Origin: Anaerovibrio sp.
Lineage (GTDB): Bacteria > Bacillota > Clostridia > Oscillospirales > Oscillospiraceae
Assembly: GCA_963647775.1 (NCBI GenBank)
Contig: CAVJBM010000103.1
Span: forward strand, 1-35,223
Direction of reading: 5' to 3'
DNA length: 35,223 nucleotides
Part shown: positions 31,286-35,223 of the stretch, piece after piece
How the letters are laid out: the number at the start of each line of letters is the position of its first letter
How positions within the stretch are numbered: position 1 is the first letter of the stretch
Made by a program: the position numbers and the translations under genes
Notes under the pieces: generated by a model
Database searches by the model: none
What the model saw: the letters and a program-made list of their open reading frames with translations, nothing else
Told to the model about the DNA's origin: nothing

Positions 31286-31337
31286 ATCATATCTTATTAT
31301 GCGGTCTTATGCCGCTGACGACAAAGAGGTGCGCGCA

Positions 31338-34300
31338 TTGTATCTGAAAGCACTGGAGATCCAGGGGTTCAAGTCCTTCCCGGACAAGACAGTCCTCACC
31401 TTCGGCTCGGACATCACGGCCATCGTGGGGCCCAACGGGTCCGGCAAATCCAATATTTCGGACGCCATCCGCTGGGTCATGGGGGAGCAGTCCTCCCGCA
31501 GCCTCCGGGGCAGCAAGATGGAGGACGTCATCTTTGACGGCACGGCCAAGCGCAAGGGCCTGGGCTTTGCGGAGGTCACCCTGGTGCTGGACAATACCGC
31601 CCACATCTTCCCCGTGGAGGAGACCGAGGTGGCGGTGACCCGCCGCTACTACCGCTCCGGGGAGAGCGAGTACTACATCAACCGCCGCTCCTGCCGGCTG
31701 AAGGACATCAACGAGCTGTTCATGGACACCGGCCTGGGCCGGGAGGGCTACTCCATCATCGGCCAGGGCCGCATTGATGAAATTCTGTCCGTCCGCAGCG
31801 CCGACCGCCGGGAGATCTTCGAGGAGGCGGCGGGCATCTCCCGCTTCCGCCACCGGAAGGAGGAGGCCGAGCGCAAGCTGGAGCGCACCGACGAGAATCT
31901 GGTGCGCATCAACGACAAGATCGACGAGCTGGAGCTCCAGGTGGAGCCCCTGCGGGTCCAGGCGGAAAAGACCAAGAAATTCCTGGTCTACCGGGACGAG
32001 CTCAAGGGCCTGGAGATCTCCGTCTGGCTGGACCAGCTGGAGCAGCTGCGGGCCCGCAGCATCAAGCTGAAGGCCGACCTGGACGCCGCCGTCCGCCAGC
32101 GGGAGGACGCCCAGCGGGACCTGGACGCCCTCTACGCCGCCGCCGAGGAGTACGCCGGGCAGATCCGGGACAAGGACGTGCAGGCGGAGGAGCTGCGGGG
32201 CGAGCAGTCCGGCCTGGACCAGCAGATCCACCAGGCGGAGAGCGGCATCGAGCTGCTGCGCAACGACATGAAGAACAACAGCGAGAACGTCCGCCGCATC
32301 AAAGAGGAGCAGGCCCAGCAGGAGGGCCGCGCGGGCAGTCTGGCCGCCCAAATCGCCGACCGGCGGGAGCGTCTTGCCGCCATCGACGCGGAGATGGAGA
32401 CCTGCCGTCAGCGGGCAGAGGAGCTGGCCCGGGAGAGCGAGGATGCCCTCCGCTCCGCCGGCGGTCTCACCCGGGAGCTGGAGGAGCTGCGGGAGCAGGA
32501 GCGGCTGAGCACCGCCTCCGCCGGCGAGGCGCGGGAGCTGCTGTCCGCCCTGGCCGCCGCGGCCCAGGAGCTGATGGACCGGGAGGAGAAGCTGGGCCGG
32601 GAGCTGCTGGAGCAGGAGGACCGCACGGCGGAGGCCAAGGCCGCCGCCGACCAGGTCCGCCGGGAGCTGGACCGCGTCACCGAGGACCGGGACGCCGCCA
32701 AGAACGTCATCTCCGGCTACCAGATGCGCTGTCAGTCCCGCCAGCGGAAGGCCGACGAAATCGGGGAGCGGCACCGCCGCCTCCAGATGGACGAGAACAA
32801 CCTGAACAGCCGCATCAAGCTGCTGGCCGAGATGGAGAAGGTGTACGAGGGCTACTCCAAGGCGGTGAAGCTGGTGATGACCGAGGCGGAGCGCGGCGGC
32901 CTGCGGGGGGTCCGGGGCCCGGTGGCCGGGCTGCTCCACGTGCCCGACCAGTACGCCGTGGCCATCGAGATCGCCCTGGGCGGCGCCATGCAGAACATCG
33001 TCACCGAGCGGGACGAGGACGGCAAGAACGCCATCCAGTGGCTCAAGCGCCGGGACGGCGGCCGGGCCACCTTCCTGCCCATGAACACCATCCGCCCGGC
33101 GGACTTCAAGGACAAGGCCGTGGAGCGGGAGGACGGCTTCGTGGGCATGGGGGACGCCCTCATCCGCTTCGAGCCGGAGTACGCCGCCGTCTTTTCCAAC
33201 CTGCTGGGCCGGGTGGTCGTCGCCAGGGATATGGACCGGGCCATGGCCATGGCCCGCAAGTTCGGCCACCGCTTCCGCATCGTCACCCTGGACGGCCAGG
33301 TGCTCAACGCCGGCGGCTCCATGACCGGCGGCTCGGTGTCCCGCAGCGCGGGCATCCTGTCCCGGGCCAACGAGCTGGAGCGCCTGAACCAGCAGAAGGC
33401 CGCCCTGGCGGAGGACCTGCGGGCCGCAGCCGCCGACCTGGCCGCCGCCCAGCGGGAGCTCACCGCCGCCAATTACGAGCTTGACACCGCCTCCGCCCAG
33501 CTGCGCGAGGCGGAGGACGCCGTCCTGAAATACACCGAGCGGGCGGACAGCGCCGCCGCCCAGCTGGCGGACCTCACCATCCGGGGGGAGCAGCTGCGGG
33601 CCGACCGGGAGCAGGTCCGCCGCCGCATGGAGGAGAATTCCTCCGCCACCGCCGCGGCCAAGGGCCGCATCGAGGAGTTGGAGGGCTCCGCCGCCGCCCT
33701 GCGGGCGGAGAGCGAGGCCCGGGCCCAGGGCCAGAGCGAGCTGCGGGAGCGGGTGGACGCCCTCAACGCCCAGACCGCCGAGCAGAAGGCCAGGCTGGCC
33801 GGGCTGGAGGGCGAGCGCGCCGCGTCGGAGCAGAATCTGGACGAGCTGGAGCGGCTCAAGGCCGACCTCTCCGGCGACGCCGCCGACCGGGACCGCCGCA
33901 TCGCCGGCCTGGAGGGGGAGAACGAGAGCCTGCTGGCCAGAATTCAGGAGGCGGAGCTGCGGCTCCAGACCCTGCGCACCTCCGGCCAGGGCTATGCCGA
34001 CGCCCTGCGCCGCCTGAACGAGGAAAAGCTGGCCCTGGAGGGCAGGCGCAACCAGGCGGACAAGGGTGCCCGGGAGAAGAACACCGAGCTGCTGGACATG
34101 CAGAAGGAGGTCTCCGCCCTGGAGCAGAAGTCCATGTCCGCCGCCACGGAGGAGAGCCTGCTGCTGGACAAGCTGTGGGAGAACTACGAGCTGTCCCACG
34201 AGGCGGCCCGCGCCCTCCGGGTGGAGCTGGAGTCGGTGCCCAAGGCCCAGCGCCGCATCGGGGAGCTGAAGCGGGCCATCTCGGCCCTGGGCAGCATCAA

Positions 34301-34907
34301 CCCCGACGCCGTGGAGGAATTCCAGCGGGTGAACGAGCGCTACACCTACTTCGCCCAGCAGCGGGACGACGTGTCCAAGGCCAAGGGCGAGCTGGAGGGC
34401 ATCATCGCCCAGATCACCGGCGAGATGACGTCGATCTTCAAGGAGCAGTTCACCCTCATCAGCCAGACCTTCCAGGAGACCTTCCTGGAGCTGTTCCGGG
34501 GGGGCAAGGCCACCCTGGAGCTGGAGGACCCGGACGACATCCTGAACTGCGGCATCGAGATCAAGGTCCAGCCCCCGGGCAAGGCCCTGAAGGTGATCTC
34601 CCTGCTGTCCGGCGGCGAGAAGGCCTTCGTGGCCATCGCCCTGTACTTCGCCATGCTGAAGGTGCGGCCCACGCCCTTCTGCGTTATGGACGAGATCGAG
34701 GCCGCCCTGGACGACGCCAACGTGGTGCGCTTTGCCCAGTACCTGCGGAAGATGAGCGATAAGACCCAGTTCATCGTCATCACCCACCGCCGGGGCACCA
34801 TGGAGGAGGCCGACGTCCTCTACGGCGTCACCATGCAGGAGCAGGGCGTGACCCGGCTGCTGACCATCAACCTGAACGACGTGGAGAAGGAGTTGCACAT
34901 CAAGTGA
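31338..34907 (+). CDS. smc: Chromosome segregation protein SMC
   Basis: GFKSF, GPNGSGKSN Walker A, long coiled coils, hinge (GRATFLP, GGSMTGG), LSGGE signature, MDEIEAALD, ITHR. TTG start at 31338 behind AGAGGT. Confidence 0.97.
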   Translation: MYLKALEIQGFKSFPDKTVLTFGSDITAIVGPNGSGKSNISDAIRWVMGEQSSRSLRGSKMEDVIFDGTAKRKGLGFAEVTLVLDNTAHIFPVEETEVAVTRRYYRSGESEYYINRRSCRLKDINELFMDTGLGREGYSIIGQGRIDEILSVRSADRREIFEEAAGISRFRHRKEEAERKLERTDENLVRINDKIDELELQVEPLRVQAEKTKKFLVYRDELKGLEISVWLDQLEQLRARSIKLKADLDAAVRQREDAQRDLDALYAAAEEYAGQIRDKDVQAEELRGEQSGLDQQIHQAESGIELLRNDMKNNSENVRRIKEEQAQQEGRAGSLAAQIADRRERLAAIDAEMETCRQRAEELARESEDALRSAGGLTRELEELREQERLSTASAGEARELLSALAAAAQELMDREEKLGRELLEQEDRTAEAKAAADQVRRELDRVTEDRDAAKNVISGYQMRCQSRQRKADEIGERHRRLQMDENNLNSRIKLLAEMEKVYEGYSKAVKLVMTEAERGGLRGVRGPVAGLLHVPDQYAVAIEIALGGAMQNIVTERDEDGKNAIQWLKRRDGGRATFLPMNTIRPADFKDKAVEREDGFVGMGDALIRFEPEYAAVFSNLLGRVVVARDMDRAMAMARKFGHRFRIVTLDGQVLNAGGSMTGGSVSRSAGILSRANELERLNQQKAALAEDLRAAAADLAAAQRELTAANYELDTASAQLREAEDAVLKYTERADSAAAQLADLTIRGEQLRADREQVRRRMEENSSATAAAKGRIEELEGSAAALRAESEARAQGQSELRERVDALNAQTAEQKARLAGLEGERAASEQNLDELERLKADLSGDAADRDRRIAGLEGENESLLARIQEAELRLQTLRTSGQGYADALRRLNEEKLALEGRRNQADKGAREKNTELLDMQKEVSALEQKSMSAATEESLLLDKLWENYELSHEAARALRVELESVPKAQRRIGELKRAISALGSINPDAVEEFQRVNERYTYFAQQRDDVSKAKGELEGIIAQITGEMTSIFKEQFTLISQTFQETFLELFRGGKATLELEDPDDILNCGIEIKVQPPGKALKVISLLSGGEKAFVAIALYFAMLKVRPTPFCVMDEIEAALDDANVVRFAQYLRKMSDKTQFIVITHRRGTMEEADVLYGVTMQEQGVTRLLTINLNDVEKELHIK

Positions 34908-35153
34908 CGCCGTAAGGACGTCGGCCTCCTTTTTTGAACTATGCCGACGGACTCTGCGGAAAAGGGCTCCCGACGGAGCCCAGCGAAGCGGGTCCGTTGG
35001 GAAGAGGAGGAGCAAGGGAGCGGGCGCAGCTTTTGCCAAAGGCGGAAGCGGAGCAGAGCGGACTTTGCGACGACGATATGCAGGAGCAGGGCGTGACCCG
35101 GCTGCTGACCATCAACCTGAACGACGTGGAGAAGGAACTGAACATCAAGTGAC
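34833..35153 (+). repeat. 76-bp direct repeat of the smc 3' end (34833-34908 and 35078-35153; 73/76 identical)
   Basis: Both copies read atgcaggagcagggcgtgacccggctgctgaccatcaacctgaacgacgtggagaagga..tg.acatcaagtgac. They differ at GAG/GAA, TTG/CTG and CAC/AAC. Confidence 0.95.
34909..35077. mobile_element. Small non-coding structured insertion element between the duplicated smc ends
   Basis: Flanked by the 76-bp duplication. Contains antisense and sense copies of smc sequence and several hairpins. Encodes no transposase. Confidence 0.55.
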
Positions 35154-35197
35154 ATCGCCCGCCCCACGATCATCAACGATACAAAGAGGAATGAAAC

Positions 35198-35223
35198 ATG
35201 GGCTTTTTTGACAAAGTAAAGAA
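35198..35223 (+). CDS. ftsY: Signal recognition particle receptor FtsY, N-terminus (partial)
   Basis: RBS AGAGGA, then MGFFDKVK; conserved smc-ftsY order. Confidence 0.75.

What the first reader, a model, noticed from the sequence alone, without database searches (positions are those of the whole stretch)
34802..35153. Target-programmed gene-end element at smc: duplicated 3' end, antisense 'guide', structured core
Seen: the order is T (smc 34804-34831), D1 (last 76 bp of smc), anti-T (34904-34930), T' (34943-34959), a ~118-bp hairpin core, D2 (second smc end, 35078-35153), then ftsY. The insert is 245 bp, has no recognisable protein gene and leaves smc intact. Ordinary IS target-site duplications and attL/attR scars do not carry a sequence complementary to the host DNA beside the junction. 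Inference: this is a non-autonomous element, or the product of an unknown RNA- or ssDNA-templated mechanism. Base pairing would specify the target and bring the core and D2 next to the T|D1 junction, enabling guided insertion, splicing-like exon swapping or 3'-end replacement. From memory, unverified, similar purine-rich cores recur intergenically in Oscillospiraceae.
Basis: partly seen in the sequence, partly recalled or inferred. Interest (0 to 1): 0.9.

Follow-up and report, generated by a model that had tools for sequence, protein, structure and literature searches.

The report
Mobile repeat duplicates smc gene end
A 116-base structured repeat found throughout gut Oscillospiraceae has landed in the end of the smc gene, copying the gene's last 76 bases and leaving a short backwards copy of the junction, a scar that recurs at other genes and points to an unusual copy-and-switch way of inserting.

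Summary
Its last 76 nt (34833-34908) recur at 35078-35153 (73 of 76), and 34904-34930 is complementary to 34804-34831 (27 of 28). A 98%-identical relative and 27 other genus relatives have the empty site (smc, then its downstream sequence), so this is a young 245-bp insertion.

The "core" (34960-35077) is one copy of a roughly 116-nt repeat family with strongly covarying, sense-strand hairpins. It occurs up to 28 or more times per genome across Oscillospiraceae genera and matches no Rfam family.

Seventeen of 96 copies examined, at 16 loci in about 10 genes, some in cultured isolates, are followed by a second copy of the neighbouring gene end. Twelve of those 16 loci also carry an antisense copy of the junction. 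One simple intergenic insertion with empty alleles has neither feature.

The antisense piece is therefore a templated "snap-back" scar of insertion, not a guide. I infer this order of events: the 3' end joins inside the gene, the interval is re-copied, and the 5' side joins just past the stop codon, because only such events keep the gene intact.

No partner enzyme was found; RT and Y1 transposase do not track copy number. The mechanism remains inferred.

The parts
31299..34907 (+). smc coding sequence, intact, ending in TGA at 34905-34907
   Evidence: ORF; Pfam SMC_N and SMC_hinge
34804..34831 (+). T: smc sequence just upstream of the duplication border; template of the antisense patch
   Evidence: 27 of 28 complementary to 34904-34930
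34833..34908 (+). D1: last 74 nt of smc plus 1 nt; the copy that completes the working gene
   Evidence: differs at one position from the corresponding stretch of the empty allele in G014
34904..34930 (+). anti-T: reverse-complement copy of T. Its first 5 nt (GTGAC) are shared with the end of D1 (microhomology). It is followed by six T (34930-34935)
   Evidence: absent from the empty allele
   Evidence: no convincing second copy in the own genome (best 16 nt, E 0.011)
34960..35077 (+). repeat element E (about 116 nt). It comprises an A-rich leader, hairpin P1 (about 34968-35002), a purine tract GAGGAGGAGCAAGGGAGCG, hairpin P2 (about 35031-35048) and a conserved 3' tail ending GACGACGA at 35076
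   Evidence: family alignments; covariation; no Rfam family
35078..35153 (+). D2: displaced second copy of the smc end, starting directly at the element's 3' end and continuing into native downstream DNA
   Evidence: the sequence after 35153 is identical to that after the smc stop in the empty allele
35198..35223 (+). start of ftsY-like gene, cut by the contig end
   Evidence: same start in G014, whose full ORF is an SRP54-type GTPase

Best explanation
SHOWN. The 245 bp at 34909-35153 are a recent insertion, in this lineage, of one copy of a roughly 116-nt dispersed repeat (E). E has a conserved, strand-specific secondary structure and is spread across Oscillospiraceae. Its fixed 3' end (…GACGACGA) is joined inside smc, 74 nt before the end of the stop codon. 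Its 5' side is joined 1 nt after the stop codon. The interval between the two joints is therefore present twice (D1, D2) and smc stays intact. A 27-nt reverse-complement copy of the sequence next to the inner joint sits at the outer joint. The same layout recurs at other genes and in other genera.

INFERRED MECHANISM. E inserts as a single (sense) strand, 3' end first. Its 3' tail often lands on a short look-alike of itself (CGACG-like). A polymerase primed at that joint re-copies the target interval. The new 3' end then has to be joined to the 5' end of E without a template. At that step it sometimes folds back, primes on microhomology (here GTGAC on GTCAC) and copies 9-28 nt of the junction backwards before switching to E.

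The two joints can lie apart by a variable distance. Inside a gene, only events whose outer joint lies beyond the stop codon keep the gene intact. That is why the duplications end at or within a few bases of stop codons. The antisense piece is a scar, not a guide.

Later homologous recombination with alleles of related strains explains why D1 and D2 differ almost only at synonymous sites. D2 is dispensable and erodes. The enzyme is unknown; it could be a host repair or replication polymerase, a reverse transcriptase, or an unrecognised partner.
For: Empty site. The 98%-identical G014 reads T-D and then exactly the window's post-D2 sequence. None of the 29 fetched genus alleles has the insert: 28 are readable through the stop and one is cut by a contig end. 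No smc match listed continues into the insert.

Family. There are 3 copies in the own assembly, 2 of them at contig ends. Nineteen of 24 same-genus genomes have matches, up to 28 per genome.

Structure. On 48 copies, 98.3% of cells are paired. The covariation score is 0.451, against 0.129 in shuffles (0 of 500 as high) and at most 0.123 when partners are slid. G.U pairs are frequent (for example 17 of 48, 17 of 48 and 48 of 48 at three pairs), so only this strand folds.

Recurrence. Four of 25 validly scored copies in relatives plus the window, and further cases among 69 collection copies, have a duplication that starts at +1 or +2 after E. The protein-level re-scan finds 17 of 96 copies at 16 loci. 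These are SMC x4, triosephosphate isomerase x3, enolase, enoyl-CoA hydratase, RNase H, a LepA-like GTPase 5' end and others (Pfam).

Antisense patch. It is present at 12 of 16 loci, scoring 9-22 against means of 5-8 for mismatched loci, and it spans or abuts the inner junction. The window's patch carries this genome's own alleles at 34817 and 34829.

Simple insertion. The empty allele reads …TTTTATCT|ATG|AGGAG… and the filled allele reads …TTATCT|E|AT AGGAG…. Eight genomes are filled.

D2 erosion. L037 versus L139, and L070 versus L071.

Independent data. A DNA contig spans T-D1-anti-T. An RNA-library contig of a relative has the smc end, a 19-nt stretch between the smc stop and the core that includes an antisense copy of the junction, and then E.
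Against: No enzyme is identified. RVT_1 is absent from G019, which has 20 E matches and is 94% complete, and is present in G018, which has none. Y1_Tnp is absent from the E-rich genomes G004, G019 and G022.

Only one simple insertion was checked against empty alleles. The claim that long duplications are not obligatory therefore rests on that locus and on the absence of purely intergenic duplications among 96 copies.

The snap-back always copies the inner junction rather than nearer parts of the interval. My model explains this only loosely.

The smc-borne copies in four genera share a first-hairpin sequence. This could mean lateral spread of one insertion, or real target preference, rather than independent events.

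Most genomes used are MAGs. Collection copies were selected by an exact 3'-tail 18-mer, which inflates the apparent conservation of the tail.
Confidence: 0.6

Rival explanations
1. Lateral spread by recombination. A cassette [gene end + E] from another strain, in which E simply lay behind the stop codon, entered by one homologous crossover inside the gene and one illegitimate (microhomology) joint at E's 3' tail. This displaced the resident gene end, which became D2.
For: D1 and D2 differ almost only at synonymous sites, and the differences cluster at one end: 7 of 7 in L020 and 2 of 3 in the window. L141, L071 and L139 differ mainly synonymously, including a TCT/AGC serine switch. The same genes and nearly the same sites recur across genera, with similar first hairpins. 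Several target junctions resemble E's tail, for example CCCGACGT|GGACGG against CGACGA|GGACGG.
Against: It does not explain the antisense patch at 12 of 16 loci. The window's D1 and T are native-like (1 difference from G014 in D1), and the patch copies the local allele. Recombination after a local insertion explains the synonymous pattern equally well.
Confidence: 0.15
2. The antisense segment is a programmable guide (RNA or ssDNA) that pairs with the host sequence and directs insertion, exon swapping or 3'-end replacement.
For: The antisense segment matches its locus at 12 of 16 duplicated loci and lies 5' of the element. The T/anti-T helix is very stable. One E subtype sits at smc in four genera.
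Against: The guide lies outside the conserved element, varies from 0 to 28 nt, and is missing at 4 of 16 duplicated loci and at the simple insertion. A guide would have to exist before insertion, yet it carries the recipient's own SNPs. No recombinase or RT gene lies beside the element or tracks it. D2 erodes, so exon swapping is not maintained.
Confidence: 0.06
3. An intron-like or alternative-3'-end arrangement: D1 through E is removed from the RNA, so that T joins D2 and D2 is translated.
For: D2 copies keep the amino-acid sequence at several loci. A 72-codon frame, 34934-35152, runs through E into D2 in the smc frame.
Against: No ribozyme or intron family matches. D2 is partly deleted in L037 and L070. 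T-D1 already gives the full protein, so there is no selective need. Open frames are common in this G+C-rich DNA.
Confidence: 0.03
4. A metagenome assembly artefact: a repeat-induced or strain-chimeric contig end.
For: The window is a MAG contig that ends 70 nt after D2, and the two other E copies sit at contig ends. No public run holds the whole stretch; the best share of sampled words is 0.23.
Against: An independent contig spans T-D1-anti-T. The same layout is present in isolate assemblies: Dysosmobacter sp. HCP28S3_G4, Pseudoflavonifractor sp. AF19-9AC and Intestinimonas sp. HCP28S3_D6.
Confidence: 0.02

Closest known systems
Bacterial interspersed non-coding repeats (REP/BIME, BOX, ERIC, Correia/MITE-type elements); comparison from my own knowledge
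   Same: Short, non-coding and hairpin-rich. Many copies per genome, mostly between genes, oriented with transcription, modular, and sometimes in tandem or inverted clusters.
   Different: There are no terminal inverted repeats. There is no fixed short target duplication: 0-2 bp at the checked simple site and roughly 17-116 nt at gene ends. Templated antisense fillers are present. No RAYT or transposase correlates with copy number. No match to any described RNA or repeat family in Rfam.
SINE/LINE-type target-primed insertion (eukaryotic retroposons); from my own knowledge
   Same: A defined 3' end joined first. Variable-length target duplications. Fillers and inversions at the 5' junction. A non-autonomous, structured, RNA-like unit that is abundant in one RNA library.
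   Different: No poly(A) or 3' repeat. No reverse transcriptase tracks copy number. No RNA intermediate has been shown. Nothing of the kind is known in bacteria.
Templated 'snap-back' insertions at microhomology-mediated end joining or template-switch repair junctions (Pol theta-type scars, quasipalindrome template switching); from my own knowledge
   Same: A short reverse-complement copy of nearby sequence at a junction, started on a few bases of microhomology (GTGAC/GTCAC here).
   Different: Here the scar accompanies the arrival of a specific mobile repeat, and its template is 17-108 nt away at the other joint. The bacterial enzyme is unknown.
Integrative elements and prophages that insert into gene 3' ends and restore them (att-site duplication); from my own knowledge
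   Same: The gene end is present twice, the gene stays intact, and the displaced copy decays.
   Different: There is no integrase and no cargo. The duplicated segment is made from, or matched to, each local target rather than carried as one fixed attP.

Membership tests
MITE (cut-down DDE transposon) | terminal inverted repeats | tested here: not met
   Consensus of 48 copies: the 5' end CGGGGCCCCC… and the 3' end …GCGACGACGA are not complementary.
MITE (cut-down DDE transposon) | short target duplication of fixed length | tested here: not met
   0-2 bp at the empty/filled locus; 17-116 nt, variable, at 16 gene-end loci.
REP/BIME with RAYT | a Y1 (RAYT/IS200-like) transposase in genomes that carry the repeats | tested here: not met
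   PF01797 is absent from the E-rich genomes G004, G019 and G022 and present in the E-free genome G018. MAG incompleteness weakens this result.
IS200/IS605-derived PATE | subterminal hairpins, insertion 3' of a conserved short motif, no duplication | tested here: inconclusive
   Hairpins are present. No conserved left-flank motif is seen in the alignments. The duplications at gene ends are not expected for this family.
Group II intron (including terminator-targeting class C) or other ribozyme | match to intron or ribozyme covariance models | tested here: not met
   cmscan of 34500-35223 at E up to 10 gave only three sub-threshold chance hits; the best was 26.9 bits against a gathering score of 120.
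IS110/IS1111 bridge-RNA element | a DEDD recombinase gene next to a non-coding RNA with target and donor loops | not tested
   The 245-bp insert contains no recombinase-sized ORF, only short frames that are common in this G+C-rich DNA. PF01548 was not searched.
SINE-like retroposon | dependence on a reverse transcriptase/endonuclease partner | tested here: not met
   RVT_1 counts do not follow E counts: G019 has 0 RT and 20 E matches; G018 has 4 RT and 0 E matches.
SINE-like retroposon | variable target duplications with a fixed 3' junction | tested here: met
   The duplication starts at +1 or +2 after E at all 16 loci, with lengths of roughly 17-116 nt.
Diversity-generating retroelement (TR/VR pair) | adjacent RT and adenine-specific differences between the repeats | tested here: not met
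   The three D1/D2 differences are not A-specific. The only RVT_1 hit in the genome is on another contig, C69.
Integrative element att duplication | an integrase and a fixed attP carried by the element | tested here: not met
   The insert is 245 bp without a gene, and the duplicated segment differs with each target gene.

The most novel reading that the evidence does not exclude
E is a bacterial counterpart of a SINE. It would be a small structured RNA (or its single-stranded DNA copy) inserted by target-primed copying with template jumps. This would produce long, variable target duplications and snap-back fillers, and would write a target-complementary tag next to each new copy, which transcripts of the locus then carry. 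Such a copy-and-switch insertion route has not been described in bacteria.
Probability: 0.2. Interest if true: 0.85.

Novelty: new variant of a known kind. Interest (0 to 1): 0.66.

Why it matters
Gut Oscillospiraceae genomes carry dozens of copies of this element, and it breaks assemblies: two of the three copies in this MAG sit at contig ends.

Its junction scars are a natural record of how it inserts. They comprise a fixed 3' joint, a re-copied target interval and a backwards-copied patch. They point to a polymerase-driven, template-switching integration rather than classical cut-and-paste or site-specific recombination.

If the enzyme is found, it would be a new mobility route in bacteria and possibly a tool for template-directed insertion. 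For annotation, the duplicated gene ends and long hairpins behind essential genes (smc, tpiA, eno) should be recognised as products of this element, not as pseudogenes, terminators or guides.

Tried and rejected
Rfam scan of the region: nothing above threshold.

Promoter/terminator consensus scan: none found.

Phage and plasmid collections: only two unannotated 4-kb faecal "Bacteriophage sp." contigs with partial 77-78% matches, and one 32-nt chance hit.

Search for a source of the 29-nt filler in the own genome: best match 16 nt, E 0.011. Search for the 39-nt filler of L068 in its genome: only itself.

Search for a long autonomous version: in five E-rich genomes, the matches compared by eye had the purine tract and the 3' tail about 55 nt apart. 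A region crowded with copies (G015:C6) holds parA/parB-type housekeeping genes and no transposase-like ORF (I named the proteins by eye).

Public runs: no run holds the whole stretch. Contigs cannot give strand or RNA ends.

Duplications flagged at L082 and L086 were dropped. They start at +48 and +22, not at the element's end, and have no antisense patch. L022 was mis-indexed and not counted.

Literature: three full-text searches (listings only, no paper read) found no description of this element or of this junction pattern.

Ideas considered and dropped:
- A retron, because there is no RT.
- CRISPR-like repeat duplication, because there is no cas context and the lengths vary.
- Translation-coupled definition of the outer joint, because selection plus short offsets explains the stop-codon coincidence more simply.
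Full report
1. WHAT IS IN THE WINDOW

The smc frame (31299-34907; SMC_N and hinge domains) ends in TGA at 34905-34907.

Its last 76 nt (34833-34908) occur again at 35078-35153. The spacing is 245 and 73 of 76 positions are identical. All three differences lie in the last 16 nt.

Bases 34904-34930 are the reverse complement of 34804-34831, with 27 of 28 paired and one base skipped. The first five bases of this antisense piece (GTGAC) are also the last five of the first repeat. Six T follow it.

Between the antisense piece and the second repeat lie a 29-nt filler and the 118-nt "core". The ATG at 35198 begins an SRP54-type GTPase (FtsY-like) in a relative's complete gene.

RNA folding of 34798-35080 gives -143.4 kcal/mol (z = -8.3; 0 of 200 shuffles as good), with the long T/anti-T helix in the best structure.

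Its 14 of 17 identity to T is in the range of chance families, and the stretch also resembles the first hairpin's 5' arm.

2. IT IS AN INSERTION, AND A YOUNG ONE

The window is a whole contig of a 255-contig, 87%-complete MAG.

Seventy-four of 77 other genomes of the genus match this smc region. Every smc match listed for them stops at the smc stop; none continues into the insert.

The closest relative, G014 (98% identity), reads T, D and then exactly the sequence that follows D2 in the window. None of the 29 fetched alleles has the insert. Twenty-eight can be read through the stop, and one (L055) is cut by a contig end.

The antisense piece carries this genome's own bases at two sites (34817 and 34829) where G014 differs.

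3. THE CORE IS A MEMBER OF A LARGE REPEAT FAMILY

The own assembly holds two more copies, both at contig ends. One of them lies behind enolase.

In a draw of 40 relatives, 19 of 24 same-genus genomes and 2 of 16 genomes of other families had matches, up to 28 in one genome.

Most are in Pseudoflavonifractor, Flavonifractor, Lawsonibacter, Intestinimonas, Dysosmobacter, Oscillibacter and Flintibacter, including cultured isolates. A few hits in unrelated phyla are probably chance.

Alignments define a unit of about 116 nt with these parts:
- a short A/T-rich leader;
- a long hairpin, P1, whose stem sequence differs from copy to copy, often with a conserved apical part CCCAGC-GNA-GCGGG;
- a conserved purine tract GAGGAGGAGCAAGGGAGCG;
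- a second hairpin, P2, in two sequence types;
- a conserved tail GAGCGGACTTTGCGACGACGA.

On 48 copies, 98.3% of cells pair. Sixteen of 29 pairs show compensatory double changes. The covariation score is 0.451, against 0.129 in shuffles (0 of 500 as high) and at most 0.123 with slid partners.

G.U pairs are common and A.C pairs are rare, so the fold belongs to the strand shown. This is the sense strand of the neighbouring genes wherever I looked.

One caveat applies: the collection copies were selected by the tail 18-mer, so the invariance of the tail is partly built in.

No Rfam family matches.

In one chicken-gut RNA library, contigs of core-like sequence had depths of 308-537 against about 6 for smc. 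The strand is unknown, and DNA carry-over is not excluded.

I tested whether the DNA right after each copy repeats DNA to its left.

- In the first set, 4 of 25 validly scored copies did: the window, L019, L020 and L024. Controls with mismatched flanks scored at most 15, against 46-79 for these four.
- Among 69 usable collection copies, further cases appeared: L131, L094, L068, L126, L136, L130, L081, L139 and L095. Shorter or more diverged cases were L071, L141 and L146.
- A protein-level re-scan of 96 copies gave the same set: 17 copies at 16 loci.

In every case the second copy starts at +1 or +2 after the element's tail.

The genes involved are:
- SMC, four times, in four genera and at nearly the same site;
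- triosephosphate isomerase, three times;
- enolase;
- enoyl-CoA hydratase;
- RNase H;
- two copies of one unnamed gene;
- three further unnamed genes;
- once, the 5' end of a LepA-like GTPase on the opposite strand (Pfam).

In all 16 loci the intact gene lies on the element's 5' side.

At 12 of the 16 loci, a 9-28-nt antisense copy of the inner junction lies between the first copy and the element. It scores 9-22, against means of 5-8 for mismatched loci. High control maxima come only from loci in the same gene. Four loci (L071, L139, L141, L146) have none; in three of these the stop codon abuts the element directly.

The own genome's enolase copy also has a 9-nt antisense match right before the element, but the contig ends inside the element.

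A contig from an RNA library shows a relative's smc end, a 19-nt stretch that includes an antisense copy of the junction, and then the core.

5. SIMPLE INSERTIONS LOOK DIFFERENT

I compared one intergenic copy (L010) with its alleles across the genus. Eight genomes are filled and many are empty.

The cleanest empty allele reads …TTTTATCT|ATG|AGGAG…. The filled ones read …TTATCT|element|AT AGGAG…. This is a plain 116-nt insertion with at most 2 bp duplicated and no antisense piece.

None of the 96 copies showed a duplication of purely intergenic DNA starting at the element's end. The two flagged cases, L082 and L086, start at +48 and +22 and were set aside.

6. WHAT THE DUPLICATED COPIES TELL

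The outer joint lies at the stop codon or within about three bases after it at roughly 13 of the 15 gene-3'-end loci. At L019 and L095 it lies further downstream. At two loci the stop codon is rebuilt by the inserted DNA (L068, L071).

The inner joint often resembles the element's own tail. Examples are CCCGACGT|GGACGG and ATCGACGT|GACGG against …CGACGA|.

D1 and D2 differ almost only at synonymous sites, often clustered at one end: 7 of 7 in L020, 6 of 6 in L068 and 10 of 12 in L139, with a TCT/AGC serine switch in L071. Yet D2 is not maintained. The G016 allele (L037) of the L139 locus keeps only about 16 nt of it, and L070 keeps only 9 nt of the copy seen in L071.

Replacement of parts of D1 or D2 by homologous recombination with working alleles of related strains explains both facts. 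This is an inference.

7. MECHANISM

Shown: a fixed 3' joint, a variable 5' joint, a re-copied interval, and a reverse-complement patch templated at the inner joint and started on microhomology.

Inferred: the element enters as one strand, 3' end first. A polymerase primed at that joint copies the target interval again. The free 3' end is then joined to the element's 5' end, sometimes after folding back and copying the junction. The distance between the two joints varies.

Inside a gene, only events whose outer joint clears the stop codon survive. For the LepA-like case the outer joint must clear the ribosome-binding site. Because short distances are favoured, the outer joints pile up at the stop codon. 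This accounts for the stop-codon coincidence without invoking translation.

I cannot say whether the copied strand is RNA or DNA. RVT_1 and Y1_Tnp genes do not follow element load. G019 has 20 matches and neither gene; G018 has no element, 4 RT matches and 8 Y1 matches. MAG incompleteness limits this test. No copy was found on phage or plasmid records.

8. RIVALS

Lateral spread of a [gene end + element] cassette, by one homologous and one illegitimate crossover, explains the hot-spot genes and the synonymous differences. It does not explain the antisense patch or the native-like D1 of the window.

A programmable guide is contradicted by points 4 and 5.

Splicing is contradicted by D2 erosion and by the lack of any ribozyme match.

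An assembly artefact is contradicted by the independent contig and by the isolate genomes.

9. NOVELTY

The element belongs to the broad kind "bacterial interspersed non-coding repeat". It matches no described family in Rfam, and three literature searches (listings only) found no account of it.

Its junction signature of long, variable target duplications plus templated antisense fillers is not a property of REP, BOX, ERIC or MITE elements as I know them. It resembles eukaryotic target-primed insertion and template-switch repair scars. I rate it a new variant of a known kind, with a real but unproven chance of a new mobility route.

Noticed in passing
window 34960-35077; own-genome contigs C221:1-118 and C117:1-53: Two of the three copies of the element in this MAG lie exactly at contig ends, and the window contig itself ends 70 nt after D2. 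The repeat evidently breaks short-read assemblies, so copy numbers in MAGs are underestimates.
   Followed up: partly
L189 (G015:C6:12000-30000), about 6.3-12.7 kb: There are eleven element units in about 6.4 kb around parA/parB-like genes. They form tandem runs of about 110-nt units, three on each strand facing outward, and both outer flanks read GTTTCACGTGAAA. This suggests an inverted duplication of the whole array together with its flank.
   Followed up: partly
L204-L209 versus L197-L203 (orthologous site between an attenuator-like terminator and the ribosome-binding site of the next gene): The same few bases are occupied in different species by the element, by unrelated 37-49-nt hairpin-bearing inserts, or by nothing. 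This looks like a hot spot for small insertions in a 5' leader.
   Followed up: no
RNA run X3 laid on window 34957-35082: Core-like contigs have depths of 308-537, against about 6 for the smc part, in one chicken-gut metatranscriptome. The element may accumulate as a stable RNA. Strand and ends are unknown.
   Followed up: no
window 34998-35016 and all copies: The invariant single-stranded tract GAGGAGGAGCAAGGGAGCG contains strong Shine-Dalgarno-like GGAGG motifs. It might bind ribosomes or the 16S 3' end.
   Followed up: no
L141, L071, L139 (D1 versus D2): In the most diverged pairs, the working copy D1 has A/T at third codon positions where the displaced copy D2 has G/C. In L141 the shift is confined to about the last 20 codons of the gene. 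In L068 the shift is reversed.
   Followed up: partly
window 34934-35152: A 72-codon open frame (TTG start) runs through the filler and the element into D2, in the smc reading frame. This is probably chance in G+C-rich DNA.
   Followed up: no
L136 (tpiA-like locus): A second element of a different subtype sits inside the displaced gene-end copy D2, splitting it into 25-nt and 49-nt pieces. The displaced copies are themselves targets for insertion.
   Followed up: partly
L085, L090, L069, L107, L128 flanks: Other, unrelated repeat families lie directly beside some copies, for example GCCGCC(A/G)…GGCAAAGTAACTCGCC and CGTCGGAACCGTCTGAGGAA…. These genomes have composite repeat clusters.
   Followed up: no
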